Below, piece after piece: positions 13,541-62,171 of a stretch of 64,000 nucleotides of DNA (position 1 is its first letter; every line of letters starts with the position of its first letter). Below the pieces are notes generated by a model. It searched no databases and had not been told where the DNA came from. It was given only the letters and a program-made list of their open reading frames with translations. Origin of the DNA: an uncultured Bacteroidales bacterium (GTDB lineage Bacteria; Bacteroidota; Bacteroidia; Bacteroidales; VadinHA17); contig CAVTDE010000007.1 in the NCBI GenBank assembly GCA_963733455.1, forward strand, positions 44,854 through 108,853. The letters are read 5' to 3'. The translations under genes and the position numbers were made by a program.

Positions 13541-15673
13541 ATGGATATAATAAATTTATTCAACATTAATCGGTTTCAGGTGAACAGGTTTTTATTCATA
13601 TTCTTTATTTTATCTGGTTTCTCTTCTGCATTTTGTCAATTTTTAAAGAACAATGAAATTGACAGATTAAATAATAGCCTTAATGACTCTGCCTGTTTAC
13701 TTGAAGAGAATAATGTCAATATTGATGTGAATGATATTTTAAAAGGCACATTTAATAACCAGTTCAGACCGTTCAAAGAATTTACAAAAGTGCCAGTTTC
13801 AAATAATGTTTATTGGATAAAATTAAGGCTGAATACAAAAGAGAAGTCGAATATTGGCCTACTTATTCCACGAGCAAATCACAGAGTGGATTTATACGAG
13901 GTCACTGATTCGGCAATTTTACATCAGGTTACAGGAATGTATGTTTCTCATAAATTTAATCAGGAGATAATTCCTTTCTCAAATTGTCTTAAACTAACAT
14001 ATCCAGGCAATTCAGAGATTTTATTAAGAATTAAAAACAAATATGACGAGAATCCCAATTTCAACCTGAGGCTCGTTTCCATAACTGATGAAATCAGAAA
14101 AAATAATAAACAAAATATCATTGATGGGTTTATTCATGGACTGCTATGGCTGATGATCATATATGGATGGTTGCTTTTTCTTCTGCATAACGATAGACTT
14201 TATCTCCTGTATTCGGCTTATATCTTGTTTATTTCAATCTGGTATTTTGGTTGTATGGCAACAATTTACAGATTGTTCCCGAATTTTCCACGTGATATCT
14301 TTCCATACACGGATATACCGGCAAGTCTAGGATCTATTTTCTACATAGGATTTGTGAGGCATTTCGCAAGTACCTCCAGGATTCTGCCAAAATGGGATCG
14401 TTTTCTTAAGGTACTTCCCTTTCTCCTCGTGATTGAAATATCAGCAATAGCTTTATTTATACCTTTTAGCGGGAGAATTATTCTGAGTTATTATATTCAG
14501 GATACGGCCATACTATTTGTTATTCTTTGCATCGGTGTGCTTGCAATTAATCTGTTTCGCACAAAAGATAAACTCGCCGTCATTACTGCCACCGGATCAT
14601 TATTTCTTCTTGCCGGAACTTTTATTGGTATCTCTCTGTACCTATTTACTTTGAATGATAACATGTTAATAATACAAAAAATAGCTACAGTAATTGAATT
14701 ATTGATCTTCACTTTCGGAATAAGTTACCGGTATAAATTGATTGAAGTAAGTAAACTTGAAGTTCAAAAAAAATTAATTGCTCAGTTAAAAGAAAATTCT
14801 GAATTACAAAAAAAGGTTAACCGGGAATTGGAAGAAAAGGTAAGAGAAAGGACAATAGAGATAAGTGATCAAAATAGAATTCTGGTGCAACAAAAGAGTG
14901 AAATAGAAATTCAAAAGAATGATCTGACATCAAGTATTCTGTATGCTAAAAAGATTCAGACCGCTCTCCTTCCTTCCCATGAAGTGCTTTCGAGAAACTT
15001 CGATGATCATTTCATCTTATATCGTCCGCTTAATATAGTTAGTGGTGATTTTTACTGGTTTTCAGAAGTTGAAAATCACATTATTATTGCTGCAGCTGAT
15101 TGCACGGGACACGGTGTACCCGGGGCTTTCATGAGTGTTCTCGGAATATCATTGTTAAATGAGATTATTAATAAATCAGGAAGATTTGATACAAGCGAGA
15201 TTTTGAATAATCTCAGAAGGCATCTGATAGATTCATTACATCAGACAGGAATCAAAGACAATACAAGGGATGGAATTGACCTTGCTTTGTGCATGATCAA
15301 CAAGAATGATCAAACGTTACAATTCTCCGGCGGGTTTCGTCCACTTTACTTTATGAGGAACGGAGAGCTGTCAGAATTCAAGGGTGACAGAATGCCTATC
15401 GGAATCTATGAAGGGATATCCGAGCCTTTTTCCAGCATAGAAATTAATTATAAACATGGAGATAAAATATATTTGTTCTCTGATGGATTTGTAGATCAGA
15501 TTGGTGGAGCAAACAGAAAAAAATTTAAGTCAGAAAATTTGAAAAGAATTTTAAGTGAAAACAGGAATTTGCAAATGAGTTTTCAAAAGGAAATTCTGGA
15601 ACAAAAACTTGATGAGTGGAAAGGAGAAACTGAGCAAATAGATGATATTCTTGTTATTGGAATTAAAATCTGA
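13541..15673 (+). CDS. 7TMR-DISM sensor fused to a PP2C/SpoIIE-type serine phosphatase
   Basis: N-terminal extracellular domain, then 7 hydrophobic helices and a coiled coil. The C-terminus carries GDFYWF...AAADCTGHGVPGAFMS...DGFVDQ...DDILVIG, which are SpoIIE/PP2C motifs. Confidence 0.85.
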   Translation: MDIINLFNINRFQVNRFLFIFFILSGFSSAFCQFLKNNEIDRLNNSLNDSACLLEENNVNIDVNDILKGTFNNQFRPFKEFTKVPVSNNVYWIKLRLNTKEKSNIGLLIPRANHRVDLYEVTDSAILHQVTGMYVSHKFNQEIIPFSNCLKLTYPGNSEILLRIKNKYDENPNFNLRLVSITDEIRKNNKQNIIDGFIHGLLWLMIIYGWLLFLLHNDRLYLLYSAYILFISIWYFGCMATIYRLFPNFPRDIFPYTDIPASLGSIFYIGFVRHFASTSRILPKWDRFLKVLPFLLVIEISAIALFIPFSGRIILSYYIQDTAILFVILCIGVLAINLFRTKDKLAVITATGSLFLLAGTFIGISLYLFTLNDNMLIIQKIATVIELLIFTFGISYRYKLIEVSKLEVQKKLIAQLKENSELQKKVNRELEEKVRERTIEISDQNRILVQQKSEIEIQKNDLTSSILYAKKIQTALLPSHEVLSRNFDDHFILYRPLNIVSGDFYWFSEVENHIIIAAADCTGHGVPGAFMSVLGISLLNEIINKSGRFDTSEILNNLRRHLIDSLHQTGIKDNTRDGIDLALCMINKNDQTLQFSGGFRPLYFMRNGELSEFKGDRMPIGIYEGISEPFSSIEINYKHGDKIYLFSDGFVDQIGGANRKKFKSENLKRILSENRNLQMSFQKEILEQKLDEWKGETEQIDDILVIGIKI

Positions 15674-16108: not shown

Positions 16109-17542
16109 TCAAACTACTTTTGGAACGTTGAACGGTTTTCTCCCGCCATCAGGACGTGAGAGATAAGAATTTGCTTCATTATCATTTACATACTGTTCAG
16201 TTTTGCCGTCGAATATCAGTTTCCTTCCGGTACGGTATGCCGTGTTGCCCATATGCATCATCGCAGTTGATATATGTCCTTCTTCAATATCTGCAATCAG
16301 GTTTTTATAATTGCGGCTTTTCACACAGTCAACAAAATTCTGGAAATGATAATCAATTTTTGCATTTGCTGCTGCTTCCCATATCGGATCGGGTTCCAGA
16401 TCAGCTGCTGTAACCGTTATCGAAGGCTTTGTAGTTCTATCCTGCTGCCTGCCCGTACTGAATGCCGCCGTTCCGACCTGACCGTCAACTGCTGCACGTT
16501 CATTTCCGCTCTGGAAAACCTGAAATCCATTCTGCATCGTTGCATACCCTTTTGTTCCCAGCCAGAGATTGCCCCATGGTTCATTTGGCGTTGGCAAACT
16601 TCTCACCTCGAGCTCCATTACGGATCCGTTCGGATATTCAAATGTTGCAACCTGGAAATTTGGAACATTCTGGTCTGATTCTTTTGCATATGCATAGAAT
16701 CCTCCACAGCATGCTATTTTAGACGGATGTTCCTTGATACTCATTCCCTGGCGGATTATGTCCATCGCATGTATGCCATTATTACCAAATTCACCCGTAC
16801 TGGTATCCCAAAACCAGTGCCAGTTATAAAGGAAGTGATTTTCATTGAATGGTATCATCGGAGCTGGCCCCCTGAAGAGATCCCAGTTTACCCCCTGCGG
16901 AGCCGGACCATCAGGTTTTCTTCCGATACTGGGCCGTGAGCGGTATACAGTGCCACGTCCCATGTAAATATCACCTATTACTCCGTCGCGTAACATCTGG
17001 ATAGCTTTCATTGTAAGTCTGTTGGCCCTTCTCTGAGTACCAGCCTGAACTATCCTGTTGTATTTCCTGGCAGCCTGAACCATTTTCCTTCCTTCATCGA
17101 CGTTATATGATACAGGTTTCTCAACATATACGTCCTTGCCAGCCTGACATGCATTTATGGTCATAAGCCCATGCCAGTAACCCGGAGTAGCAATTGAAAT
17201 GACATCAAGATCCTTGTTCTCAAGCATCTTGCGGTAATCAGTGTATGTTGATGGTTTTGGTCCGCCAAGATCTTCTATATCCTTGATTGCCTGTGGCATA
17301 AGATAATCAACGCAGTCGCAGATAGCCGCCACCTGTGTCTCCTTTATTTTTGTATAGTTGGCTGTATGACCAGATCCTCCATATAATCCTCCGCGATCAT
17401 GTATTCCGATCACTCCGACATTGATCCTGTCAGATGGTTTTACCTGCTGAAATCCCCTGATGTATGCAGGAGCTCCAATGGCCATACCTGCTGTTGCCAT
17501 CACTGATTTCTTAATGAACGTGCGTCTTTTCTCAGTTTTCAT
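16109..17542 (-). CDS. Gfo/Idh/MocA family oxidoreductase with Tat signal
   Basis: KRRTFIKKSVMATAGMAIGAPA twin-arginine signal, VGVIGIHDRGG Rossmann start and an EKP motif (VYVEKP). Confidence 0.9.
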   Translation of the reverse strand: MKTEKRRTFIKKSVMATAGMAIGAPAYIRGFQQVKPSDRINVGVIGIHDRGGLYGGSGHTANYTKIKETQVAAICDCVDYLMPQAIKDIEDLGGPKPSTYTDYRKMLENKDLDVISIATPGYWHGLMTINACQAGKDVYVEKPVSYNVDEGRKMVQAARKYNRIVQAGTQRRANRLTMKAIQMLRDGVIGDIYMGRGTVYRSRPSIGRKPDGPAPQGVNWDLFRGPAPMIPFNENHFLYNWHWFWDTSTGEFGNNGIHAMDIIRQGMSIKEHPSKIACCGGFYAYAKESDQNVPNFQVATFEYPNGSVMELEVRSLPTPNEPWGNLWLGTKGYATMQNGFQVFQSGNERAAVDGQVGTAAFSTGRQQDRTTKPSITVTAADLEPDPIWEAAANAKIDYHFQNFVDCVKSRNYKNLIADIEEGHISTAMMHMGNTAYRTGRKLIFDGKTEQYVNDNEANSYLSRPDGGRKPFNVPKVV

Positions 17543-17667: not shown

Positions 17668-19470
17668 TTAGAAAGCACGGATTGCCCGGGTTTTTATTGC
17701 ATTTTCATTCCTGTTTTGGTTGCTCTTGTTGCCGTAATAAAAACTCACTACCCATGCACCATACTTATCCTGGGTAGAACTCCAATAGAAGGAATCCTTA
17801 AAATCGCCCCAACCTTTTTCATGCAAATTTTTATACATGAGAAACAATTCATTGATTGACGGTAAAAACCAGTCACTATATCCATTCATTTCCAGGTTAT
17901 AGCATAAACTGGCCGCGGTTTCAACGGACGGACAACCGTTTACTATATCTGATGTATTTTTATTACCTGTCCCTATTTCCCTGCCTGCCGCTCCCGGAGG
18001 AGTACAGTTGCCCCATAATGCAACCTGACTTTGATCCGAAACTGCACATACCAGGCCATGTTCTCCTGTTTCGTCAATATAGAATATATAACCACCATTT
18101 AATTGCTCACCTATTACATATTCTGCTTTAAAAGTTGCATCATCACCAGGGATTGTCCCGTTCTCATTTGACACAACGATCCTGTAATGATAAGTCGTAC
18201 CGGATTTAAGTCCCCTGATATCTGCACTTGCCATTACGGGCTTATTTCCACTCACAGGACTTTGAGATGCTGTTATTGTATTGCCATAATCTGTTGTTGT
18301 GCCATATTCAAATGTTACAACAGTTTGCAAAAAATGTGCATTGACAGTACCATTCAGTTTTGCGGTTCCTGGTGTAGTGTTGGTTGCTGAACCGGTTTCC
18401 ACTGAAGGTACTTCACCTGATGTGGTAAATGGCATATCAATACCAACCATTATTCCTATGGAGTTTGTGGCGACAACTCTATAGTGGTATGTTAAACCGG
18501 ATTTGAGGTCTGAAACAACGGCGCTGACCCTGGAAGCAGTTTTCCCTGTAACAGGGTTTTGAACAGCTGTTATTTTATTTCCATAACCAGATGTAGTTCC
18601 GTATTCAAATGTAACAAAAGCTGAAAGATCATTGGCATTAACCAAACCATTTAAAGTAGCCTCTTTCCCCTGAACATTTGTGGCAGGCTGAGTGGAGACT
18701 ATTGGAACTGTTCCGGAAGCAACTAAAATTCCGTTATCCGCATCTTCGGCATCAAGCATATCAATCAGGATAACACCATTTGCTCCTCTTGATCCATAAA
18801 TAGCAGCGGCGGGCCCTTTAAGGACCTCTATTGATTTCACAAACTGGGGAGGGATATCTGCTATTGACCTGACAGGTACACCATCAACAATATACAGAGG
18901 CTCATTGCTTTGCATGATTGATGTAATTCCCCTGATCAGTATATTATCCTGATTCACCTGAACTCCGGGAATTGTACCATGTAACATATCATAAATTGAG
19001 CTGTATGATGAATATTTACTGTCCATCGTGTTTAATTTGCTTATGGGCGTTGTAATTTTTGATTTTTCCATTTTACCATAACCAACATTAATTTCTTCCT
19101 TATCTGCAAGATCTTCGGCATGACTCTCTGATTTATTCTTATACGGAGCTGCACTCGGAAAAGTAAAATTTATTCTGGTCCTCCCATTGATAACTTCCGC
19201 AAGTATCCCATGTGTAGAAGAAATAACAATGATTTTCGATGCATCAGTTGGAGCGGTGATCCTGACTTTATAAAATCCCTTTGCGTCGGTAACAACCCTG
19301 GTTTCATTATTACTGGTTCCGATTATGGCTATTATGGCACCAGCGACAGGGTAATGATACAGGTCAGTCACATAACCGGTAATTATGAACTTACTTTTTA
19401 TTTGTCCATTAGAAGGTATGACAGCCGCGGCAGTTAATAACAGAAATAAAATTAAGCCTTTAAGTTTCAT
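17668..19470 (-). CDS. Secreted multidomain protein: CarboxypepD_reg-like, TonB-dependent-receptor plug, two Ig/FN3-like repeats, C-terminal DUF1566 (Lcl-like)
   Basis: Signal peptide, then ITGYVTD...AIIAIIGT...TDAKGFYKV. Plug blocks are IPGVQV...IRG...PLYIVDGVP...IKSIEVLKGPAAAIYGSRGANGVILI. Two ~90-aa repeats follow (..LNG.VNA....V.FEYGTT..YGN.ITA.Q.PV.G........DL/GLKSG.TYHYR.V..N). The tail reads DWFLPSINELFLMYKN...YWSSTQ. No beta-barrel region is present. Confidence 0.8.
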   Translation of the reverse strand: MKLKGLILFLLLTAAAVIPSNGQIKSKFIITGYVTDLYHYPVAGAIIAIIGTSNNETRVVTDAKGFYKVRITAPTDASKIIVISSTHGILAEVINGRTRINFTFPSAAPYKNKSESHAEDLADKEEINVGYGKMEKSKITTPISKLNTMDSKYSSYSSIYDMLHGTIPGVQVNQDNILIRGITSIMQSNEPLYIVDGVPVRSIADIPPQFVKSIEVLKGPAAAIYGSRGANGVILIDMLDAEDADNGILVASGTVPIVSTQPATNVQGKEATLNGLVNANDLSAFVTFEYGTTSGYGNKITAVQNPVTGKTASRVSAVVSDLKSGLTYHYRVVATNSIGIMVGIDMPFTTSGEVPSVETGSATNTTPGTAKLNGTVNAHFLQTVVTFEYGTTTDYGNTITASQSPVSGNKPVMASADIRGLKSGTTYHYRIVVSNENGTIPGDDATFKAEYVIGEQLNGGYIFYIDETGEHGLVCAVSDQSQVALWGNCTPPGAAGREIGTGNKNTSDIVNGCPSVETAASLCYNLEMNGYSDWFLPSINELFLMYKNLHEKGWGDFKDSFYWSSTQDKYGAWVVSFYYGNKSNQNRNENAIKTRAIRAF

Positions 19471-22719: not shown

Positions 22720-24228
22720 TTAAGGTCTGTTTAATGTATTCGTACTGGTTAATGTAACTGCAGCATTAATGGCAAGCATTCTGCCTTCTGCAACTGCATG
22801 TGAGTTCATTGTTATGGACGTCAAAGCCAATACGTTCCCTTTAAAAGAAGTGTAATCTCCAATTGTGGCTGAACTGCCAATCTGCCAAAAGATATTTTTA
22901 GCCTGAGCGCCACCGGTAAGAATAACATTACCCCCTGCTCCACCTACTGTGGTTAGTGCAGATCCGACCTGAAAAATCCAGACAGCGTCGACATTACCCT
23001 GTGCATCGAGAGTCAGATCGCCTGAAGCTATCAATAGAGAAGATGTCGATTTGTAAATGCCCGGGGTGAGTGTCTTTCCACCCTGATCGCCAGCTACCAG
23101 TACAGGTGCCGGTAAAATTGCAGCCTGGGCAAAAAGATATGCACTGTTAAGATCCAGTTTAGCCTGTGCAAGCATTGCGGATGTTCCCATAGGGAGCATG
23201 TCATCAGATCCGTAAATAGCTCCGTTAGATATTAAAGCCGGCGGAAATCCTGTTATTGAAGCACGAATACCGGGGCTAATCCCTACATCCAGATTATTGA
23301 TCACGCTCAGACCAACGCTGGTAATTGCAGCGGCTCCGATAATTCCAAATCGTGCTGCTGATTTAAGATCAACAAATAAGGGATTAACAGTTACAACTGG
23401 GACCGGTACCGGATCTGGAACTGGTACTACTAAAGTAACAGGACTGTTTATAGCGTTCGTACTGGTTAATGTAACCGCAGCATTAATGGCAAGCATTCTG
23501 CCTTCTGCAACTGCATGTGAGTTCATTGTTATGGACGTCAAAGCCAATACGTTTCCTTTAAAAGAAGTGTAATCTCCAATTGTGGCTGAACTGCCAATCT
23601 GCCAAAAGATGTTTTTAGCCTGAGCGCCACCGGTAAGAATAACATTACCCCCTGCACCACCTACTGTGGTTAGTGCAGATCCTACCTGAAAAATCCAGAC
23701 AGCGTCGACATTACCCTGTGCATCGAGAGTCAGATCGCCTGAAGCTATCAATAAAGAAGATGTCGATTTGTAAATGCCCGGGGTGAGTGTCTTTCCACCC
23801 TGATCGCCAGCTACCAGTACAGGTACCGGTGAAAGTGCTGCTTCGGCAAAGAGATAAGCATCCGTAAGATCCAGTTTAGCCTGTGCAAGCATTGCAGATG
23901 TTCCCATAGGGAGCATGTCATCAGATCCGTAAATAGCTCCGTTAGATATTAATGCCGGCGGAAATCCTGTTATTGAAGCACGAATTCCAGGACTAATCCC
24001 AACATCCAGATTATTGATCACACTCAGACCAACATTTGTTATTGCAGTAGCTCCAAGAATCCCGAACCGACCTGCTGATTTAAGATCAACCGATAAGGGA
24101 TTATTAATTGTTTTTGATGATATGGTGGCTGGGTTTATGTTCCCGGTTACGAGTTCATCTTTTTGACACCCTGGTAATAGTCCAACCGATACTATCGCAA
24201 AGGCTGTTAATAAATTAATTACTTTCAT
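22720..24228 (-). CDS. Tandem two-domain DUF3494 (ice-binding-like) lipoprotein
   Basis: Lipobox LLPGCQKDE. Two ~230-aa beta-helix-type DUF3494 domains (FGILGA..ITN.G.S.I.G.....PG...TGFPP...G.IY...) are joined by a PVPDPVPVPV linker. The two domains are near-identical at the DNA level with a 717-nt period. Confidence 0.85.
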   Translation of the reverse strand: MKVINLLTAFAIVSVGLLPGCQKDELVTGNINPATISSKTINNPLSVDLKSAGRFGILGATAITNVGLSVINNLDVGISPGIRASITGFPPALISNGAIYGSDDMLPMGTSAMLAQAKLDLTDAYLFAEAALSPVPVLVAGDQGGKTLTPGIYKSTSSLLIASGDLTLDAQGNVDAVWIFQVGSALTTVGGAGGNVILTGGAQAKNIFWQIGSSATIGDYTSFKGNVLALTSITMNSHAVAEGRMLAINAAVTLTSTNAINSPVTLVVPVPDPVPVPVVTVNPLFVDLKSAARFGIIGAAAITSVGLSVINNLDVGISPGIRASITGFPPALISNGAIYGSDDMLPMGTSAMLAQAKLDLNSAYLFAQAAILPAPVLVAGDQGGKTLTPGIYKSTSSLLIASGDLTLDAQGNVDAVWIFQVGSALTTVGGAGGNVILTGGAQAKNIFWQIGSSATIGDYTSFKGNVLALTSITMNSHAVAEGRMLAINAAVTLTSTNTLNRP

Positions 24229-24622
24229 ATTATTGATTTAATTTTGTGAATAAATTTTCACATGACAAAGGTGATGTCATTTCTAAGCAGATGTGTTGTA
24301 CATTTAAAGGGAAGAGTTGTCTTTTTCACACATTTACCAAAAGTTATAATGAAAGTCTGCTATTAAACTTGCTATGCATCTATAATGGTTAATTAGCAGT
24401 AACCGTATATAAGTAAATGAATAGGAAAGATATAACTCTAAAATTTACTTCAAATCTCAGTGGAAAATCGTTGAAAAAAAACTAACGCATCGAATTAAAG
24501 GGATAAAGGATACTGAAGCCCACGGCAAATCCTTTTTTTGCAAATTCATAAATAGTAGCGATATTAGTACCACTAACGAGCGGATATAAAAAAACTCAAT
24601 GTCGGACAAAATATTTCTTAAT

Positions 24623-25852
24623 ATGAATAAAATATCAAAAGTTATCTTTCTGGCGGTTGTTTGTTTATTGTTAACCTCGGGTCAGTTATACTTTGGTTCA
24701 TCCGACAATTTATCAGGGCAATCTCAGGAAGAATATCTTCCCGTAGTTAATGAGCTTCCTGATCTTTTTCTTAGAAATGATGGATCCCGGGTGACAACAG
24801 TTGGTCAATGGAAATCACATCGCGAAGAGTTGGTAGAAAAATTACTGAAATATGAATATGGTCATCTGGCTAAATCGTCTCCCGTACTTGTAATAAACGA
24901 ATCTGCTGATTCAATAATAAGAGATGGACCTGATATTATAAGAAAGAAGGTTGTGAATTTAAAAACTGGTCCTGGAGGAGAGATTAGTTTCACATTGAAT
25001 CTTTTTGTACCAGACAAAAGTGAGGGACCATTTCCTGCAATTATTGACGGTGATCTCTGTTGGGGATCATTGCTTAAAAGGTTGAAGCCGGAAGGATTAG
25101 TATCTCTTGTAAAGCGCGGGTACATAATCGTAGAATTTGATCGTACAATATTTGCAGCGGATAGGAATACCAGAGACGAAGGGGTATTTCCCCTTTATCC
25201 AAATTATGACTGGGGTGCGCTTGCTGCCTGGGCATGGGGTTTTCATCGCACGATTGATTATCTTCTTACCCAGAGTGCAATTAATAAGGATAAGATCTGC
25301 GTTACTGGTTGGTCACGCGGTGGAAAAGCTTGTCTGCTTGCAGGTGCACTTGATGAGAGAATTGCCCTGGTCGCACCCAACTGTTCCGGTACATGCGGTT
25401 CTGGTCCATTGCGTTATGTCGACACCGGTGGTGAAAAAATTGATAATATTGCTACCACATTCCCTTACTGGTTCAATCCCACTTTTCGAAAGTTTACTGG
25501 AAAAGCGGTCGAAACACTGCCTTTTGATCAGCATACTTTAATTGCATTGGTCGCCCCACGTGCATATTTAAGTACCAATGGGTTAAAGGATGCATGGGCA
25601 AATCCAAAAGGGACAGCTCAGGCACATCTTGCAGCTAAGGAAGCTTTTAAAGCCCTGGGTGTGGAAAATAAAATCGGGATCTTCTATACAAATTCAGGTC
25701 ATGATCATAATATTGACAAGTGGATTGCCTTACTTGATTTTGCAGATTTGACCTTTTACGGTAAAAAGACTTCTTATGATTATAACAAGATACCTTTTAA
25801 TGATCTGCCGAAAGCTTATTCCTGGACCTCATCTGTACTGTCTATAAATTAA
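24623..25852 (+). CDS. CE15-like glucuronoyl esterase (alpha/beta hydrolase)
   Basis: VTGWSRGGKACLLAGALDERIALVAPNCSGTCGSGPLR aligns with the CE15 consensus VTGCSRxGKGALxAGAxDERIAL..PQESG.GG. Signal peptide from the ATG at 24623. Confidence 0.7.
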   Translation: MNKISKVIFLAVVCLLLTSGQLYFGSSDNLSGQSQEEYLPVVNELPDLFLRNDGSRVTTVGQWKSHREELVEKLLKYEYGHLAKSSPVLVINESADSIIRDGPDIIRKKVVNLKTGPGGEISFTLNLFVPDKSEGPFPAIIDGDLCWGSLLKRLKPEGLVSLVKRGYIIVEFDRTIFAADRNTRDEGVFPLYPNYDWGALAAWAWGFHRTIDYLLTQSAINKDKICVTGWSRGGKACLLAGALDERIALVAPNCSGTCGSGPLRYVDTGGEKIDNIATTFPYWFNPTFRKFTGKAVETLPFDQHTLIALVAPRAYLSTNGLKDAWANPKGTAQAHLAAKEAFKALGVENKIGIFYTNSGHDHNIDKWIALLDFADLTFYGKKTSYDYNKIPFNDLPKAYSWTSSVLSIN

Positions 25853-48747: not shown

Positions 48748-50853
48748 TCACTTTTTAATCACCTTTACCGATTTCCGGAAATTACCATTGTAAACAGTGA
48801 CTATATAAACTCCGGGGGGGATATCACCGGTCTCAACTACTGTCATATACCGGCAATTGGCTATTTCTTTCAGCAGTTTGCCATTAGCCGAGAAGAATAG
48901 CAATGTATAATTATCCTCATTGCTGAGCGCCACATTGAATTGATCGCCGATAAGTGTTGGCCAGACAAAAATATCAGGCTCACCGGAATTAGTTTTCCTT
49001 TTGATATAGACATATATGTTATTGCTTGTCACAGTCCCGCAGGTCCCTTTTACAATCACCCGGTACAGTCCGGTATTGCCGGCGTTTAAATTCTGCATGG
49101 CAAATTCAGTTCCGGTTGCATTGTTGAGGCGAGTGCTGTCTTTTTCCCACTGATAGCTCAGATCATGCCCTGCAGCGGTGACATTAAGTTTAATTGCTCC
49201 ACCAAACGCGACCTCCGAATCAGGAGTTAAACTGGTTATTGCGGTAAGCGGAAGGACAGTAAGATTAATCGGGAGGGAAGTCGCCGATCCGCACGATCCG
49301 TTAATCTTGGTTATGTAGATTCCGGAATTGTTCACCCTCGTACTGTTCAGGTTAACCTCATTTGAAGCACCCGATTTCAAAAGTGTGTCATTCCTGTACC
49401 AGGAATAGTTAAGATTGTAACCTTCCGCATTCACATCGATTACAAGCGGCTTTTCTGCACATAATATTGTATCCCCCGATTGTCTGAGGATATTTGTGAG
49501 TCTTGCAATATGAACACTCAGTACGGACCAGTCTGATAACGAATTATTATGTGTTACTCTGAACATTACATATACTTTGCCTGTAAAAGATGCATTCCAG
49601 TTTGCAGTTGCCTGACCGGATGTACCGGAAATACTTCCTGCACTTGTGGGAAAGAGCTGCCATTCATAAGCAGTAGCTCCGGTTACTGCACCCACACTAT
49701 AACTGCTTGTTGAAATTCCCTGGCATACGATCGAATCACCTGTAGGTGCCGGAGGAGTAAATGATATTTCAACGCCGGTTTTGGAAGTGATCCAAGAATC
49801 AAAAAGTGAAACGCGGGTATAAGCCCCATAGGTATCGCATCTGCTGCTCCCCCAGCTTACAATTCCTCCCAGCTTAAATTCGTTATAATATGGCACTACC
49901 AATGGACCTCCGCTATCGCCGTTGCAGGCATCCTTCCCGCCATTAAGGTAACCTGCCATCAGGTCAGTGGAAGGAATATCGGGCCATACAGTCGATGCCT
50001 GTGTATTTGAAATCAGGGGCAGCTGTACCTTTTGAAGAGTTTTTGGTAAAGTTTGGGGATTGACCACGGTCAGTCCGTAACCGGTAACCCATGCAAATAC
50101 TCCGGGGTCAGTTAGTCCTGCAGCAGCATCCCTTGCTGATACAAGTTTTATTGGTTTGGCATTTGGGTAATTTATTGTCTGTGTTAATTTCAGGAGAGCA
50201 ATATCATTTGCAAGGGTACTATGATTGAAGTTTTCATTTGCTATTACCTGGCTTACCAGATATTTCTTACCCTCAAGTCCGCTGACCGGATTATTTGCAC
50301 CGACAATGACTTCCATGCTGGCTGCCGGTACCGGATTTCCTGCATCATCTATGGTGCAATGGGCGGCCGTTAACACCCAGTCACCACTTATGATTGTTCC
50401 CCCGCAGTCAAAATTTCCGGCACGAAGGTAAACCTGCCATGGAAAATTTGAAATATCCGTACTTGTCCCTCCCGTAATCTTACTTTCTTCCTGAAGGATA
50501 CCGGTAAAAAAATAAAAGAAATGATCCCCCGGACCAATGTCAGAATTAATAAGAAGGACAGGTTCATTGTTGATGTATAACCTGTAAAGTGATGTATCAG
50601 AATTATATACAGCAGATACTGATATTTCAAGCCGGTACCTTTTATTGGCTTCAAGAACAAAAGGGATGGAATCATCCCGGAAATACTCATTACCCTGAAA
50701 GACAGGATTGTACTGCTCATCAAGCACAAGCCATTGTGATTCTGCAACATTTTTTGTTTTCACCATATGGACGATAACCTTCTGAGAAAACAGGGAGAGT
50801 GAGAAAGCCCAGATAAACGCGACCAGCAGAGTTCTTTTCATAACATTAGTCAT
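48748..50853 (-). CDS. Secreted trypsin-like (S1) serine protease with Ig/PKD-like repeats and a T9SS C-terminal sorting domain
   Basis: WVLTAAHC (His), DIALLKL (Asp), GDSGGPL (Ser). Repeated Y.W..D modules. The C-terminal ~80 aa (VWPTLIGDQFNV...GVYIVTVYNGNFRKSVKVIKK) is T9SS type-A-like. Confidence 0.9.
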   Translation of the reverse strand: MTNVMKRTLLVAFIWAFSLSLFSQKVIVHMVKTKNVAESQWLVLDEQYNPVFQGNEYFRDDSIPFVLEANKRYRLEISVSAVYNSDTSLYRLYINNEPVLLINSDIGPGDHFFYFFTGILQEESKITGGTSTDISNFPWQVYLRAGNFDCGGTIISGDWVLTAAHCTIDDAGNPVPAASMEVIVGANNPVSGLEGKKYLVSQVIANENFNHSTLANDIALLKLTQTINYPNAKPIKLVSARDAAAGLTDPGVFAWVTGYGLTVVNPQTLPKTLQKVQLPLISNTQASTVWPDIPSTDLMAGYLNGGKDACNGDSGGPLVVPYYNEFKLGGIVSWGSSRCDTYGAYTRVSLFDSWITSKTGVEISFTPPAPTGDSIVCQGISTSSYSVGAVTGATAYEWQLFPTSAGSISGTSGQATANWNASFTGKVYVMFRVTHNNSLSDWSVLSVHIARLTNILRQSGDTILCAEKPLVIDVNAEGYNLNYSWYRNDTLLKSGASNEVNLNSTRVNNSGIYITKINGSCGSATSLPINLTVLPLTAITSLTPDSEVAFGGAIKLNVTAAGHDLSYQWEKDSTRLNNATGTEFAMQNLNAGNTGLYRVIVKGTCGTVTSNNIYVYIKRKTNSGEPDIFVWPTLIGDQFNVALSNEDNYTLLFFSANGKLLKEIANCRYMTVVETGDIPPGVYIVTVYNGNFRKSVKVIKK

Positions 50854-60543: not shown

Positions 60544-61449
60544 TTGCATCAAAACAGACATAACGGCAACTCCCTTTATCACTTTAGTTTCCTCCGGGAT
60601 ATCAGAGTGCATGGCATTTATTATAACTCATTCGACAAGTATCTGGGTCTCTATCCCTTTATTAAAAAGGAACATTATCACGATTTCTATACAGTTCTGT
60701 TGTTTACAAAAGGGAACAGTGTTATAAGGGTAAATAACGATTCTTACCCTGTTGAACCGCAAACCATCTGTATCATTGCTCCTGGTCAGATGCATTCATT
60801 TGAAGGCCTTGAAGATATGCACGGCACTGTTTTCTTCTTTTGCCAGGATTTTTATGTTGAGGAATTTAGTTTTATCCGCTTATTGAATGTTTTTTCCTGC
60901 ACTTCACAAATCAACGGTAATATATCAAATCATATCATTAAATTGTCAGATGACGAGTTTTGCCAGACAAGAGATTTAATAAAGCTGATCGAGCGGGAAT
61001 ATGAATGTTATACACCTGCCAATAATTCTTCAACTGTAATACGTTCGTTTCTGAACATACTTCTTTTGAAACTTTCTGAATTATATGAAGCAAAGTCGGA
61101 ACAATCGAATAAAAGCGACAGCATCTTCATTCACGAATTATCACGTCTTGTTGATTCTTATTTTATTAATGAACACCATATCGGTTTTTATACTTCAGCG
61201 TTTAATGTCTCGGAGAAACAATTAAACGACATATGCAACAAGAATTTCAACTGCGGATTAAAAAAAATATTAAATGACAGGCTGATGCAGGAAGCCAGAA
61301 AACTCCTGCTCTCTTCAGAACTTTCGGTTTCAGAGATTTCGTACAAGCTGAATTTTGACGATAACTCCTACTTCAATAAGGTCTTTAAGAAACAGACCGG
61401 CCTCACACCCAAGCGATTCCGCGACGTACATAAAAAGCTGGTACCATAA
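60544..61449 (+). CDS. AraC-family transcriptional regulator (cupin-like N-terminal domain plus HTH)
   Basis: C-terminal ISYKLNFDDNSYFNKVFKKQTGLTPKRFR. The start is uncertain: the track uses TTG and there is no nearby in-frame ATG. Confidence 0.8.
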   Translation: MHQNRHNGNSLYHFSFLRDIRVHGIYYNSFDKYLGLYPFIKKEHYHDFYTVLLFTKGNSVIRVNNDSYPVEPQTICIIAPGQMHSFEGLEDMHGTVFFFCQDFYVEEFSFIRLLNVFSCTSQINGNISNHIIKLSDDEFCQTRDLIKLIEREYECYTPANNSSTVIRSFLNILLLKLSELYEAKSEQSNKSDSIFIHELSRLVDSYFINEHHIGFYTSAFNVSEKQLNDICNKNFNCGLKKILNDRLMQEARKLLLSSELSVSEISYKLNFDDNSYFNKVFKKQTGLTPKRFRDVHKKLVP

Positions 61450-61488
61450 AAACTCCGAATTTTACCATTTTTCATGATCATGTGATTT

Positions 61489-61496
61489 TACTTTTG
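61489..61496 (+). promoter_or_regulatory. Candidate Bacteroidota -7 promoter element (TAnnTTTG)
   Basis: TACTTTTG lies 20 nt upstream of the hmuY-like ATG. This is a motif match only. Confidence 0.3.
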
Positions 61497-61515
61497 CAAA
61501 AAACTTACATTGATT

Positions 61516-62106
61516 ATGAAGACACTATTTATTTCGCTTATCGTTTTAACAGGATTTTTTTTCGGCTGTACGAAAGAAGAAACCAATCCGATCCAGTCAC
61601 AAACATTTGAAGTAAACTCCACGGGATCAACAACATGGAAATATTTCAGTTTCTCAAAAAACGATACAATCAACGTCGCGGACCCGCTAACCTCAACTGA
61701 ATGGGATCTGGCATTCCAGCGATACAGACTCAGAACAAACGGGGGCAAATCGGGAAGCGGAATGGGTAGTGCAGCAAACTCTTTTAAGAAAGGCCAGGCA
61801 GGTTTTGATGCATTGAACGAGGTTTCGGATACATCCACCTTTTTTACGGATGACACCCTTAGAATTGCCGTACAGCAGGGATATGCAACCTATACCGTTA
61901 ATCCGGAGCTCTATACCTGGTTCACGATTGAACTGGCAACCCAGGGAACACAAATTGTACCATCAGACTACATCTATATAATTAAGACAGGTGATGGTAA
62001 ATATGCAAAAGTCTGGTTCAAAAGCTATTACAGCGCTGCCAATGTTTCCGGTCATGTTACTTTTCAATACAAGTACCAGCCGGACGGATCAAAAAGGCTT
62101 AATTAA
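61516..62106 (+). CDS. hmuY: HmuY-family heme-binding lipoprotein
   Basis: Lipobox FFFGCTKEE. TWKYFSF...TEWDLAFQRYRLRTNGG pattern typical of HmuY. It lies directly upstream of a TonB-dependent receptor. Confidence 0.75.
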   Translation: MKTLFISLIVLTGFFFGCTKEETNPIQSQTFEVNSTGSTTWKYFSFSKNDTINVADPLTSTEWDLAFQRYRLRTNGGKSGSGMGSAANSFKKGQAGFDALNEVSDTSTFFTDDTLRIAVQQGYATYTVNPELYTWFTIELATQGTQIVPSDYIYIIKTGDGKYAKVWFKSYYSAANVSGHVTFQYKYQPDGSKRLN

Positions 62107-62171
62107 ATTCTGATGGAAATCCGGGTTGACCGGCTGATCTTACAAATTGAGAATAATCTCCGTGAAATAAT

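What the first reader, a model, noticed from the sequence alone, without database searches (positions are those of the whole stretch)
17668..19470. TonB-dependent-receptor plug without a barrel, fused to FN3-like repeats and a DUF1566 domain
The 600-aa secreted protein begins like a SusC/TBDR, with a CarboxypepD_reg-like domain and then canonical plug blocks ending in GSRGANGVILI. Instead of a 22-strand barrel it continues with two ~90-aa internal repeats (FEYGTT..YGN...TYHYR) and a C-terminal DUF1566/Lcl-like domain (DWFLPSINEL...YWSSTQ). A soluble or surface-displayed plug domain is architecturally odd. It could be a decoy or partner for a TBDR, or a TonB-interacting surface protein.
Basis: partly seen in the sequence, partly recalled or inferred. 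Interest (0 to 1): 0.55.

Follow-up and report, generated by a model that had tools for sequence, protein, structure and literature searches.

The report
Barrel-less TonB plug fused to lectin
This is a real, conserved gene from uncultured Bacteroidales that joins the periplasmic front end of a SusC-type nutrient transporter (without its membrane barrel) to a stalk and a lectin-like head; it belongs to a large, unstudied group of barrel-less "plug" proteins that seem to work with the TonB machinery rather than as transporters.

Summary
ORF 17668-19470 (-) encodes a 600-aa protein: signal peptide, SusC-type NTE domain, TonB-box block, complete plug, two FN3 repeats and a DUF1566/Lcl_C head. It has no barrel, lipobox or T9SS domain.

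It is not a chimera. More than 70 protein clusters from independent metagenomes share the architecture and length (50-64% identity), and every domain is conserved.

The plug is not a one-off truncation. The closest relatives of the N-terminal 245 aa are a large family of stand-alone ~235-aa NTE+plug proteins. All 150 best representatives lack a recognisable barrel. They share a variant TonB box, (I/V)-N/D-(I/V)-GYG, against VVV(I/V)GYG in SusC.

Barrel-less plugs also follow TonB_C in inner-membrane M56/BlaR1-like proteins, which puts those plugs in the periplasm. The stalk-and-head module otherwise occurs on lipoproteins. Similar lipoprotein genes sit just upstream of stand-alone plug genes in two loci.

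Best reading (inferred): a periplasmic, TonB-system-associated lectin-like adaptor, not a transporter. A plug acting in trans on a separate barrel is not excluded. Function is untested. I found no paper describing such proteins.

The parts
17668..19470 (-). Whole gene: a 600-aa barrel-less NTE-plug-FN3-FN3-DUF1566 protein. The TAA stop codon is at 17668-17670.
   Evidence: ORF list and translation. An identical protein, P0001, occurs on a 281-kb contig, and more than 70 homologous clusters share the architecture.
19405..19470 (-). Signal peptide, aa 1-22 (MKLKGLILFLLLTAAAVIPSNG|Q). It is signal-peptidase-I type with Gln at +1, as in SusC proteins, and has no lipobox Cys.
   Evidence: Read directly from the sequence. 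Aligns with the signal peptide and first residues of SusC 8aa4_A. The cleavage site is inferred.
19159..19392 (-). NTE: an Ig-like, CarboxypepD_reg-type N-terminal extension, about aa 27-104.
   Evidence: The Pfam match is weak. The AF2 model has pLDDT about 80-97 here, and Foldseek matches the crystal structure of the SusC NTE domain 9hfj (target TM-score 0.80, rmsd 2.6 A over 82 columns).
19033..19104 (-). TonB-box block, aa 123-146 (DKEEINVGYGKMEKSKITTPISKL), with the family-specific Asn128.
   Evidence: Aligns with the SusC TonB-box block EVVV(I/V)GYGT.KKKDLTGAVSSV. Mean pairwise identity within the family is 0.63. The N/D signature is quantified.
18751..19065 (-). Plug domain, aa 136-240. 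Motifs: PGV (167-172), IRG (R180), LYIVDG (192-197), LKGP (K218) and the SusC signature AIYGSRGANGVILID (223-237).
   Evidence: Pfam Plug E=1.8e-17 with full profile coverage. SusC signature TIGR04057 scores 44.7 bits, just under its 46.2 cut-off. Foldseek matches SusC 8aa4_A, ButC 8ypu_C, BtuB and others at 2.5-3.2 A.
18706..18750 (-). Acidic, variable linker, aa 241-255.
   Evidence: pLDDT below 50. Mean pairwise identity within the family is 0.37.
18427..18705 (-). FN3-like repeat 1, aa 256-348.
   Evidence: Internal repeat alignment. Pfam FN3-type hits. AF2 beta-sandwich at pLDDT 85-95. Foldseek matches tandem FnIII domains at E about 1e-9.
18130..18408 (-). FN3-like repeat 2, aa 355-447.
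   Evidence: Same evidence as repeat 1.
17671..18123 (-). DUF1566/Lcl_C head, aa 450-600 (Pfam core 477-598), presumably with a C-type-lectin-like fold. Cys475, Cys513 and Cys523 are invariant.
   Evidence: Pfam Lcl_C E=1e-10, above its cut-off. PDB 8q4e (Lcl C-terminal domain) E=3.8e-7. It is the most conserved domain in the family at 0.69. The AF2 model of this part is poor (pLDDT 30-50), so the fold rests on homology and on PMC11162425.

Best explanation
The gene encodes a genuine, Sec-exported, non-lipidated protein with no barrel. It belongs to an uncharacterised family of uncultured Bacteroidales.

It is a fusion of two pre-existing modules:
1. A signal peptide, NTE, variant TonB box and plug. 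This module otherwise exists as a large family of stand-alone ~235-aa proteins. It also forms the periplasmic C-terminal part of inner-membrane M56/BlaR1-TonB_C proteins.
2. An FN3 stalk with a DUF1566 lectin-like head. This module is otherwise carried by lipoproteins.

Most likely mechanism (inferred): the protein stays in the periplasm or at the inner face of the outer membrane. Its NTE and TonB box dock by beta-strand pairing onto a TonB-type C-terminal domain. The plug is an autonomous globular domain and does not close a channel. The FN3 stalk holds out a head that binds a glycan, a glycoconjugate or a lectin-type partner. On this reading it is a TonB-system-associated periplasmic adaptor or sensor accessory, not a transporter.

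Shown here: the architecture, its conservation, the absence of a barrel, the module origins, and the cis fusion of barrel-less plugs to TonB_C. Inferred: the compartment, TonB binding and glycan binding.
For: **Architecture and folds:**

**Real and conserved:**
- More than 70 clusters of 594-606 aa share the architecture at 50-64% identity.
- Three GTDB species representatives carry it.
- Plug (0.67), TonB-box block (0.63) and head (0.69) are the most constrained parts, and the linkers are free to vary.

**No barrel partner nearby:**
- No barrel or SusD gene lies next to the gene in the window or in seven homologous loci. Pfam-annotated neighbours are available for L001-L004. For L010-L012 the only check is BLAST against the window's neighbours.
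- No SusC-type barrel remnant was found in any window ORF of 80 aa or more.

**The N-terminal module belongs to a barrel-less clade:**
- All 150 best representative hits lack a recognisable barrel, and most are 205-269 aa proteins that end where the plug ends.
- These short genes are complete genes on long contigs followed by unrelated genes.
- True SusC N-termini are less similar, at 30-37% against 35-49%.
- The clade has a TonB-box signature: N/D at position -2 in 31/31 and 58/69, against 1/49 in SusC.

**Periplasmic location and TonB link:**
- M56 + (NTE) + TonB_C + Plug is a recurrent complete architecture.
- One example overlaps a BlaI-type repressor gene.
- TonB_C is periplasmic by topology.

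**NTE:** it is periplasmic, flexible, essential for BT1763, also present in some B. thetaiotaomicron TonB homologues, and hypothesised to aid TonB pairing (bioRxiv 10.1101/2023.07.07.548152; 10.64898/2026.09.16.752182).

**Targeting:** the protein has no lipobox Cys, no Por_Secre_tail match and no barrel.

**Link to the lectin-like module:**
- Plug-less relatives of the C-terminal module are lipoproteins.
- Fib_succ_major lipoprotein genes lie immediately upstream, on the same strand, of stand-alone plug genes in L009 and L090. Elsewhere in the sampled loci there is only one other such gene.

**Head function:** the DUF1566 domain of Lcl has a C-type-lectin-like fold and binds glycosaminoglycans (PMC11162425).
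Against: - There is no experimental or direct computational evidence for localisation, TonB binding or glycan binding.
- The isolated FepA plug behaves as an unfolded protein in vitro (Usher et al. 2001, as cited in PMC11658791). A plug may therefore need a barrel to fold.
- Arg180 (IRG) and Lys218 (LKGP) are conserved. In classical transporters the residues at these positions pair with barrel acidic residues, according to my own knowledge of the FepA literature. Their conservation is compatible with docking into a barrel.
- The lectin-like module's relatives are lipoproteins that could be surface-exposed, and Lcl itself acts outside the cell.
- No tonB or exbBD gene lies next to the gene in any locus examined.
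- The AF2 plug fold could be biased by transporter structures in its training set.
- The Fib_succ_major adjacency rests on 2 of about 4 independent contexts.
- The head domain was not modelled with confidence.
Confidence: 0.45

Rival explanations
1. Plug in trans. The protein, like the stand-alone ~235-aa plug proteins, inserts its plug from the periplasm into a separately encoded outer-membrane barrel that lacks its own plug. The result would be a two-component TonB-dependent gate or an anchor. The FN3-lectin arm would hang on the periplasmic side.
For: - The plug is complete and strongly conserved. This includes Arg180 and Lys218, the residues that contact the barrel in classical transporters.
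- The TonB box is retained.
- The isolated FepA plug is unfolded without its barrel (PMC11658791).
- From my own memory, not checked here: separately exported FhuA cork and barrel reconstitute an active transporter in E. coli (Braun et al. 2003, J Bacteriol).
- NTE-plug takes the place that a lipid anchor occupies in relatives, which fits an anchoring role.
Against: - No barrel gene lies next to the gene in the window or in the four family loci with Pfam annotation, nor next to the nine short-family loci. L010-L012 were checked only against the window's neighbours.
- No plug-less barrel was seen in any DNA examined.
- Plugs fused to inner-membrane-anchored TonB_C proteins could hardly sit inside an outer-membrane barrel in every case.
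- Tandem half-plug repeats cannot be channel plugs.
Confidence: 0.2
2. Surface adhesin. The FN3 stalk and lectin-like head are displayed on the cell surface, as in intimin/invasin passengers or Bacteroidota surface glycan-binding lipoproteins. The NTE-plug would be the membrane-proximal anchor, threaded through a partner barrel or exported by an unknown route.
For: - A stalk of Ig/FN3 repeats with a C-type-lectin-like tip is a typical adhesin build. Lcl is an adhesin, and its C-terminal domain resembles the invasin/intimin lectin-like domains (PMC11162425).
- Relatives are lipoproteins with some acidic residues after the Cys (CKKEE, CKKEK), which could be a weak surface-export signal.
- The protein evolves much faster than its syntenic neighbour: 53-55% against 81-82% identity.
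Against: - The protein has no lipobox, no T9SS C-terminal domain and no barrel.
- In known transporters both ends of the plug face the periplasm (established structures; own knowledge).
- The NTE and TonB box act in the periplasm.
- Fusions with TonB_C place barrel-less plugs in the periplasm.
Confidence: 0.1
3. TonB decoy or regulator. A soluble periplasmic protein whose TonB box and NTE titrate a particular TonB paralogue or an M56-TonB_C sensor, so modulating SusC-type uptake or BlaR1-like signalling. The lectin head would make this dependent on a periplasmic glycan.
For: - The TonB-box block is conserved but altered: Asn128, with N/D at position -2 in barrel-less proteins only. That suggests a distinct partner specificity.
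- Bacteroides species encode many TonB homologues, some with M56 or NTE domains (10.1101/2023.07.07.548152).
- M56-TonB_C-plug genes pair with BlaI-type repressors.
Against: This is purely inferential. A decoy would not obviously need a full, highly conserved plug. There is no regulatory gene linkage for the 600-aa family.
Confidence: 0.1
4. Artefact or decay. The gene is a misassembled chimera or a pseudogenised SusC remnant with no function of its own.
For: Nothing beyond the unusual architecture. Annotation pipelines label such proteins generically as SusC or plug-domain proteins.
Against: - The same architecture and length recur in more than 70 clusters from JGI, ENA, Logan and NCBI assemblies and in three GTDB species.
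- All domains are under constraint, with variable linkers.
- The reading frame is uninterrupted, the junction is conserved, and there is no barrel remnant.
Confidence: 0.02

Closest known systems
SusC/RagA-family TonB-dependent transporters (e.g. BT3090 SusCdex 8aa4/9hfj, BT1763, ButC 8ypu)
   Same: Signal peptide with Gln at +1, Ig-like NTE, the TonB-box block GYGT.K.K.LT..VS, and a plug carrying the PGV, IRG, (L)VDG and YGSRGANGVI motifs. The predicted folds superpose.
   Different: There is no 22-strand barrel and no SusD partner. TIGR04056 is matched only at positions 84-201 of 981 (114.6 bits against a cut-off of 368). The TonB box carries Asn where SusC has Val. The C-terminus is FN3-FN3-DUF1566.
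Stand-alone ~235-aa 'TonB-dependent receptor plug domain-containing proteins' of Bacteroidota (uncharacterised; e.g. P0122, P0270, P0292, P0337)
   Same: They are the closest relatives of aa 1-245 at 35-49% identity. They have the same signal peptide, NTE, N/D-type TonB box and plug, and no barrel.
   Different: They stop right after the plug, whereas the window protein continues into a stalk and head. No function is known for them either, and NCBIfam has no dedicated model.
M56/BlaR1-like TonB homologues of Bacteroidota (M56 + TonB_C, as in B. thetaiotaomicron TonB1/TonB10), here the subset with a C-terminal plug (P0409, P0410, P0425, P0448)
   Same: They contain a barrel-less plug, sometimes with an NTE, in a periplasmic setting linked to the Ton system (10.1101/2023.07.07.548152).
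   Different: They are anchored in the inner membrane, carry TonB_C in cis and pair with a BlaI-type repressor. They have no FN3 or DUF1566 domains.
Legionella pneumophila collagen-like adhesin Lcl (C-terminal domain, PDB 8q4e/8qk8)
   Same: It shares the DUF1566/Lcl_C domain at the C-terminus of a stalked protein (Pfam E=1e-10; PDB E=3.8e-7). Its fold is C-type-lectin-like and it binds glycosaminoglycans (PMC11162425).
   Different: The window protein has no collagen-like repeats or N-terminal coiled coil. The equivalog model NF046116 scores 46.5 bits against a cut-off of 500. Lcl is secreted by a type II system and lacks disulfides, whereas this head has three invariant Cys. Whether this head forms a trimer is unknown.
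Bacteroidales lipoproteins with FN3-like repeats and a DUF1566 or Fib_succ_major head (P0030, P0084, P0079, P0111, P0065; neighbour genes in L009 and L090)
   Same: They have the same ~93-aa TFEYGTT...TYHYR repeats and the same head, at 47-54% identity.
   Different: They are anchored by a lipidated Cys and have three to six repeats (one Ig/FN3-like domain in the L090 neighbour). In the window protein the NTE-TonB box-plug module replaces the lipid anchor.
Intimin/invasin inverse autotransporters (functional analogy only)
   Same: A stalk of Ig-like domains tipped by a C-type-lectin-like domain, with a segment that occupies a barrel lumen (own knowledge; PMC11162425 notes the similarity of the lectin-like domains).
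   Different: Those proteins carry their own 12-strand barrel and a LysM domain. There is no sequence relationship, no TonB box and no plug fold.

Membership tests
TonB-dependent transporter, SusC/RagA family (TIGR04056) | 22-strand C-terminal beta-barrel (PF00593 or the SusC barrel) | tested here: not met
   Pfam finds no barrel model. TIGR04056 is matched only at positions 84-201 of 981, at 114.6 bits against a cut-off of 368. A SusC barrel HMM gives no hit in any window ORF. Pfam does detect the barrel of the ordinary transporter at 62166-64000.
TonB-dependent transporter, SusC/RagA family (TIGR04056) | N-terminal plug domain | tested here: met
   PF07715 E=1.8e-17 with full profile coverage. 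Foldseek matches SusC, ButC and BtuB plugs at 2.5-3.2 A.
TonB-dependent transporter, SusC/RagA family (TIGR04056) | TonB box preceding the plug | tested here: inconclusive
   The sequence block EEINVGYGKMEKSKITTPISKL aligns with the SusC TonB-box block. It carries Asn128 where 84% of SusC proteins have Val. Binding to TonB was not testable.
TonB-dependent transporter, SusC/RagA family (TIGR04056) | Adjacent SusD-like lipoprotein gene or PUL context | tested here: not met
   The neighbours are a Gfo/Idh/MocA oxidoreductase and a GH3 enzyme. No SusD gene is present in L001-L004. L010-L012 were not annotated for SusD.
Barrel-less stand-alone NTE+plug family (uncharacterised) | Signal peptide, NTE, N/D-type TonB box and plug; closest sequence relatives lack a barrel | tested here: met
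   All 150 best representatives lack a recognisable barrel. N at position -2 in 31/31 family members and N/D in 58/69 short proteins.
Barrel-less stand-alone NTE+plug family (uncharacterised) | Protein ends just after the plug (about 230-240 aa) | tested here: not met
   The window protein continues for another 360 aa (FN3-FN3-DUF1566). It is a fusion derivative, not a plain member.
DUF1566 / Lcl_C domain proteins (PF07603) | Match to the Lcl_C profile above the gathering score | tested here: met
   42.3 bits against 34.9, E=1e-10, profile positions 3-117 of 117. PDB 8q4e E=3.8e-7.
Legionella Lcl adhesin (NF046116 equivalog) | Collagen-like repeat stalk and full-length equivalog score | tested here: not met
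   46.5 bits against a cut-off of 500, and only the C-terminal ~75 residues match. The sequence has no GXY repeats.
Legionella Lcl adhesin (NF046116 equivalog) | Trimeric head that binds sulphated glycosaminoglycans | not testable with these tools
   The head was modelled poorly (pLDDT 30-50). No multimer or ligand tools were available.
Fibronectin type III repeats | Beta-sandwich FN3 fold, in tandem | tested here: met
   Pur_ac_phosph_N scores 37.8 bits against 30; fn3 scores 23.5 against 25. AF2 pLDDT is 85-95. Foldseek matches tandem FnIII domains of titin and neogenin at E about 1e-9.
Bacteroidota lipoproteins / T9SS cargo (routes to the cell surface) | Lipobox Cys after the signal peptide, or a C-terminal Por_Secre_tail domain | tested here: not met
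   The signal peptide ends ...VIPSNG|Q with no Cys. There is no PF18962 hit, and the C-terminus is the DUF1566 domain.

The most novel reading that the evidence does not exclude
Barrel-less NTE-TonB box-plug proteins would be a previously unrecognised class of clients or partners of the Ton machinery in Bacteroidota. The class includes the stand-alone ~235-aa family, this lectin-tipped fusion and the M56-TonB_C-plug sensors. On this reading the plug domain has a life independent of the barrel. It could act as a soluble periplasmic module coupled to TonB-type domains, for glycan-dependent signalling or regulation of uptake. Alternatively it could act as a trans-acting plug or anchor for a separately encoded barrel.
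Probability: 0.3. Interest if true: 0.8.

Novelty: new variant of a known kind. Interest (0 to 1): 0.6.

Why it matters
TonB-dependent transport is understood as a barrel closed by its own covalently attached plug. Plug-only gene calls are usually dismissed as fragments.

The evidence here is that Bacteroidota keep a large, conserved set of plug proteins without barrels. These have their own TonB-box signature. They recur in fusions to TonB_C/BlaR1-type sensors and, in this gene, to a lectin-like stalk-and-head module.

If these proteins engage TonB or dock into barrels in trans, that would add a new layer to how this phylum, which dominates glycan turnover in guts, sediments and digesters, controls or exploits its many Ton systems. 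It would also give the essential but unexplained NTE domain a second experimental handle.

The hypotheses are directly testable with a few recombinant domains and one cultivable carrier of the stand-alone form, such as Mucilaginibacter.

Tried and rejected
- **Misassembly or pseudogene.** Rejected: there are many independent full-length homologues with conserved junctions.
- **Hidden or neighbouring barrel.** Pfam and NCBIfam find none in the protein. A home-made SusC barrel HMM hit no window ORF of 80 aa or more. That HMM also missed the non-SusC barrel at 62166-64000, which Pfam detects.
- **Conserved operon partner for the 600-aa family.** None found. Only local synteny with a Gfo/Idh/MocA gene in the closest relatives L003 and L012.
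- **Full-length AF2 model.** Mean pLDDT was only 62 and the DUF1566 head was unusable. A second job on aa 22-250 with a 109-sequence alignment worked.
- **Genome scan of GTDB representatives.** It therefore gives only a lower bound of three species for the 600-aa family, and it returned no stand-alone plug genes.
- **Odd-length ORFs.** L018, L026 and L028 have NTE+plug followed by unassigned sequence, and L020 has no Pfam hit. Not pursued.
- **Literature searches.** Searches for barrel-less, isolated or stand-alone plug proteins, for 'plug domain-containing protein' in Bacteroidota, and for M56/TonB/plug found no description of such proteins.
- **Promoter and terminator scan.** Uninformative: 8 sigma-70-like sites against 8.9 expected, and Bacteroidota promoters are not covered.
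- **Model-organism data for the stand-alone family.** The members sampled are almost all from uncultured bins. Cultured carriers turned up only later (Mucilaginibacter, Parapedobacter, Sphingobacterium).
- **Conservation of the barrel-contacting residues Arg180 and Lys218.** Considered as a discriminator between free and docked plug, and judged not decisive.
Full report
**1. What is there**

The window holds one intact ORF at 17668-19470 on the minus strand: ATG start, TAA stop, 600 aa. Sequence searches give the following.
- A full-length TonB-dependent-receptor Plug match covers aa 136-233, profile positions 2-107 of 107, E=1.8e-17, 64 bits against a cut-off of 23.9.
- An Lcl_C/DUF1566 match above its cut-off covers aa 477-598 (E=1e-10).
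- There are two FN3-type stretches and a weak CarboxypepD_reg hit at aa 30-74.
- NCBIfam's SusC/RagA model is matched only at its positions 84-201 of 981, at 114.6 bits against a cut-off of 368.
- The best solved-structure match is a SusC homologue (8aa4_A), aligned from the signal peptide to the end of the plug (aa 3-256). The C-terminal ~75 residues hit the Lcl C-terminal domain, 8q4e.
- The two internal repeats (aa 256-348 and 355-447) align over 93 residues at about 47% identity.

**2. Structure**

A full-length AF2 model from a 31-sequence alignment was confident only for the two repeats (pLDDT 85-95). These match tandem FnIII domains in the PDB at E about 1e-9.

A second model of aa 22-250, built from 109 diverse sequences, reached mean pLDDT 86. 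Its first domain superposes on the crystal structure of the NTE domain of the SusC dextran transporter (9hfj, target TM-score 0.80, 2.6 A). Its second domain superposes on the plugs of SusC (8aa4), ButC (8ypu), BtuB, FepA, Cir and ChuA at 2.5-3.2 A over 122-145 columns.

The DUF1566 head was not modelled reliably. Its assignment rests on sequence homology. The C-type-lectin-like fold is taken from the Lcl structure paper (PMC11162425).

**3. Not an artefact**

The identical protein occurs on a 281-kb contig, and a member of the same 90%-identity cluster sits on a 263-kb contig from another assembly. More than 70 clusters (at 90% identity) from JGI, ENA, Logan and NCBI data have the same domain set, at 50-64% identity. 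Nearly all are 594-606 aa long.

Three GTDB species representatives, all uncultured Bacteroidales MAGs, carry the gene (L010-L012).

In a 31-sequence alignment all domains are conserved while the linkers vary. Mean pairwise identities are:
- DUF1566 head 0.69
- plug 0.67
- TonB-box block 0.63
- FN3 repeats 0.55-0.57
- NTE 0.56
- linkers 0.24 and 0.37

Cys475, Cys513 and Cys523 are invariant.

There is no barrel-coding remnant. A profile built from 40 SusC barrels hits no window ORF of 80 aa or more. That profile also missed the barrel of the ordinary NTE+plug+barrel transporter at 62166-64000, next to an HmuY gene. Pfam detects that barrel, so it is Pfam's negative result on the 600-aa protein that has a positive control.

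**4. Context**

The gene stands alone between a convergent Gfo/Idh/MocA oxidoreductase gene (with a Tat-like RRxFxK motif) and a divergent GH3 gene.

In L001-L004, homologous loci with Pfam-annotated neighbours, there is no barrel, SusD, tonB or exbBD gene nearby. L010-L012 were compared only against the window's own neighbours by BLAST. Across all seven loci the neighbours differ. The exception is the closest relatives, L003 and L012, which keep the oxidoreductase gene nearby.

That neighbour is 81-82% identical between genomes, whereas the plug-fusion protein is only 53-55% identical. The protein therefore evolves comparatively fast.

**5. Where the N-terminal module comes from**

An exhaustive profile-free search with aa 1-245 against 1.84 billion representatives gave 21,276 hits. 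The best 150 all lack a recognisable barrel. Most (134) are 205-269-aa proteins that align from their signal peptide to their last residues with aa 1-243 of the query (35-49% identity) and stop there.

These are real genes. A second search found 1,597 relatives of one of them. In nine loci on contigs up to 362 kb they are followed by unrelated genes.

True SusC N-termini from reference genomes are less similar, at 30-37%.

The barrel-less proteins share a derived signature in the TonB box. The residue two positions before the Gly of GYG is Asn in 31/31 members of the 600-aa family. It is Asn or Asp in 58/69 stand-alone proteins where the motif could be found. In true SusC it is Val in 41/49 and Asn/Asp in 1/49.

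The module is therefore not a recently truncated SusC. It belongs to a distinct barrel-less clade. NCBIfam has no dedicated model, and sources name these proteins generically ('TonB-dependent receptor plug domain-containing protein') or wrongly (SusC).

**6. Other barrel-less plug architectures**

Several other architectures turned up along the way.
- **Tandem half-plug repeats.** Units of about 60 aa (PLYIVDG ... VLKD.SA.A.YG..G.NGVI.ITTK) follow either a signal peptide or an M56/BlaR1 membrane domain.
- **M56 + (NTE) + TonB_C + Plug.** This is a recurrent architecture of about 600-680 aa on contigs up to 6.4 Mb, with near-full-length plug matches in P0409 and P0410.
- **Pairing with a repressor.** P0410 overlaps by 4 bp a BlaI/MecI-type repressor gene just upstream. 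That makes it a BlaR1/BlaI-style signalling pair whose extracytoplasmic part is TonB_C plus plug.
- **Cultured carriers.** Parapedobacter and Sphingobacterium have M56+plug proteins, and Mucilaginibacter has ~246-aa plug-only proteins.

TonB_C domains are periplasmic, so these fusions place barrel-less plugs in the periplasm, next to a TonB-type domain. This is an inference from topology.

**7. Where the C-terminal module comes from**

The closest plug-less relatives of the FN3-FN3-DUF1566 part (47-54% identity) are lipoproteins. They have a lipobox Cys (…LTGC|KKEK, …TIGC|EKQK, …ISC|KKEE), one divergent Ig-like domain, three to six copies of the same ~93-aa repeat, and the same head. In the window protein the NTE-TonB box-plug module sits where these relatives have a lipid anchor.

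In two of about four independent genomic contexts of stand-alone plug genes (L009, L090), the gene immediately upstream on the same strand encodes a Fib_succ_major/Lcl_C protein. In L090 this is a lipoprotein with one Ig/FN3-like domain.

By the precomputed Pfam calls, only one other such gene occurs in the 13 family and short-family loci. My own narrow HMMs found the same genes across ~300 kb and none in 1.3 Mb of unrelated SusC loci. This control is crude and of limited sensitivity.

Fusion plus neighbourhood thus point to a functional link between barrel-less plugs and stalked lectin-like proteins.

**8. Mechanism**

Shown:
- the protein is exported (signal peptide with Gln at +1, like SusC);
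- it has no lipobox, no T9SS domain and no barrel;
- it keeps a conserved NTE, TonB-box block and plug;
- it ends in a stalk and a lectin-like head.

From the literature:
- The NTE is a flexible periplasmic Ig-like domain. It is essential for BT1763, is also present in some B. thetaiotaomicron TonB homologues, and is suspected to help pair with TonB (10.1101/2023.07.07.548152; 10.64898/2026.09.16.752182; PMC12204202).
- The DUF1566 domain of Lcl is C-type-lectin-like and binds glycosaminoglycans.

Inferred (confidence 0.45): the protein is periplasmic, docks on a TonB-type C-terminal domain through its NTE and variant TonB box, and uses its head to bind a glycan or glycoconjugate. That would make it a Ton-associated adaptor or sensor accessory rather than a channel.

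The main rival (0.2) is a plug acting in trans on a separately encoded barrel. Evidence for it:
- the isolated FepA plug is unfolded (Usher 2001, cited in PMC11658791);
- Arg180 and Lys218, the barrel-contacting positions of classical plugs by my own knowledge, are conserved;
- separately exported FhuA cork and barrel can be reconstituted, which I recall from memory and did not check.

Evidence against it is the lack of any partner barrel in the DNA examined, and the fusions to inner-membrane proteins.

Other readings are a surface adhesin (0.1), a TonB decoy or regulator (0.1) and an artefact (0.02).

**9. Comparison and novelty**

The protein is not a TonB-dependent transporter, because the defining barrel was tested for and is absent. 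It is not an Lcl orthologue either, because it has no collagen repeats and the equivalog model scores 46.5 bits against a cut-off of 500.

It works, if anything, like the periplasmic front end of a SusC protein detached from its channel. All its domains are known, and databases already hold and label such proteins.

What appears undescribed is the barrel-less plug clade with its TonB-box signature, its fusions to TonB_C/BlaR1-type proteins, and its fusion and neighbourhood link to lectin-like stalk proteins. Six literature searches on these themes found no description.

I rate the finding a new variant of a known kind, interest 0.6.

**10. Limits**

No localisation, binding or expression data exist. 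The source genome beyond 64 kb could not be searched for plug-less barrels. The adjacency statistic rests on few loci. The AF2 plug fold may lean on transporter structures in its training set. The head domain was not modelled.

Noticed in passing
window 22720-24228 (-): A 502-aa lipoprotein (…LLPGC|QKDE) made of two nearly identical ~240-aa Ice_binding (PF11999/DUF3494) halves joined by a Pro/Val-rich linker. It looks like a very recent internal tandem duplication.
   Followed up: partly
window 60544-64000 (+): An AraC-type regulator (60544-61449), HmuY (61510-62106), and an ordinary NTE+Plug+TonB_dep_Rec barrel transporter (62166 onward, running off the window end). This is an hmuYR-like haem uptake locus. 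I used it as the positive control for barrel detection by Pfam.
   Followed up: partly
proteins P0194, P0211, P0234, P0253, P0260: Tandem repeats of only the C-terminal half of the plug, about 60 aa each (PLYIVDG...VLKD.SA.A.YG..G.NGVI.ITTK). There are four to seven or more copies, following either a signal peptide alone or an M56/BlaR1 membrane domain. A sub-domain of the plug appears to be an autonomous repeat module.
   Followed up: partly
L094 4594-6986 (P0410); also P0409, P0425, P0448, P0436: M56/BlaR1-like membrane domain + (NTE) + TonB_C + Plug proteins of about 600-680 aa. P0410 overlaps by 4 bp a BlaI/MecI-type repressor gene (Penicillinase_R) just upstream, which suggests a signalling pair whose periplasmic sensor is TonB_C plus plug.
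   Followed up: partly
alignments A1 and A2 and SusC loci L013-L088; window aa 125-132 (nt 19075-19098): TonB-box signature. Barrel-less plug proteins have (I/V)-N/D-(I/V)-GYG: N in 31/31 and N/D in 58/69. True SusC proteins have V-V-V-(I/V)-GYG, with N/D in 1/49.
   Followed up: yes
L008 8001-8714 and 8791-9501: Two stand-alone ~236-aa plug genes in tandem, between a MiaB-like radical-SAM gene and aspS. The same housekeeping context, with a single copy, occurs in L089 and L092.
   Followed up: no
L009 5529-7748 and L090 4754-5746: Fib_succ_major/Lcl_C genes lie immediately upstream, on the same strand, of stand-alone plug genes. One of them has a T9SS Por_Secre_tail domain, and one is a lipoprotein with an Ig/FN3-like domain.
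   Followed up: partly
window 16109-17542 (-) against L003 7623-9056 and L012 4139-5572: The neighbouring Gfo/Idh/MocA oxidoreductase (with a Tat-like RRTFIK motif) is 81-82% identical to its syntenic orthologues. The plug-fusion protein next to it is only 53-55% identical, so the two evolve at markedly unequal rates.
   Followed up: partly
L018 1312-3315, L028 9887-11644, L026 10001-10945: ORFs of 667, 585 and 314 aa with NTE+Plug followed by about 90-440 aa that match no Pfam barrel or other family. They may be further barrel-less architectures or decayed SusC genes.
   Followed up: no
window 13541-15673 (+); 48748-50853 (-); 24599-25852 (+): A 7TMR-DISM sensor fused to a SpoIIE/PP2C phosphatase; a trypsin-like protease with PKD and Ig_7 domains; and a CE15 glucuronyl-esterase-like protein. 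Together with the GH3 gene, the region has a glycan-degrading flavour but no SusCD pair.
   Followed up: no
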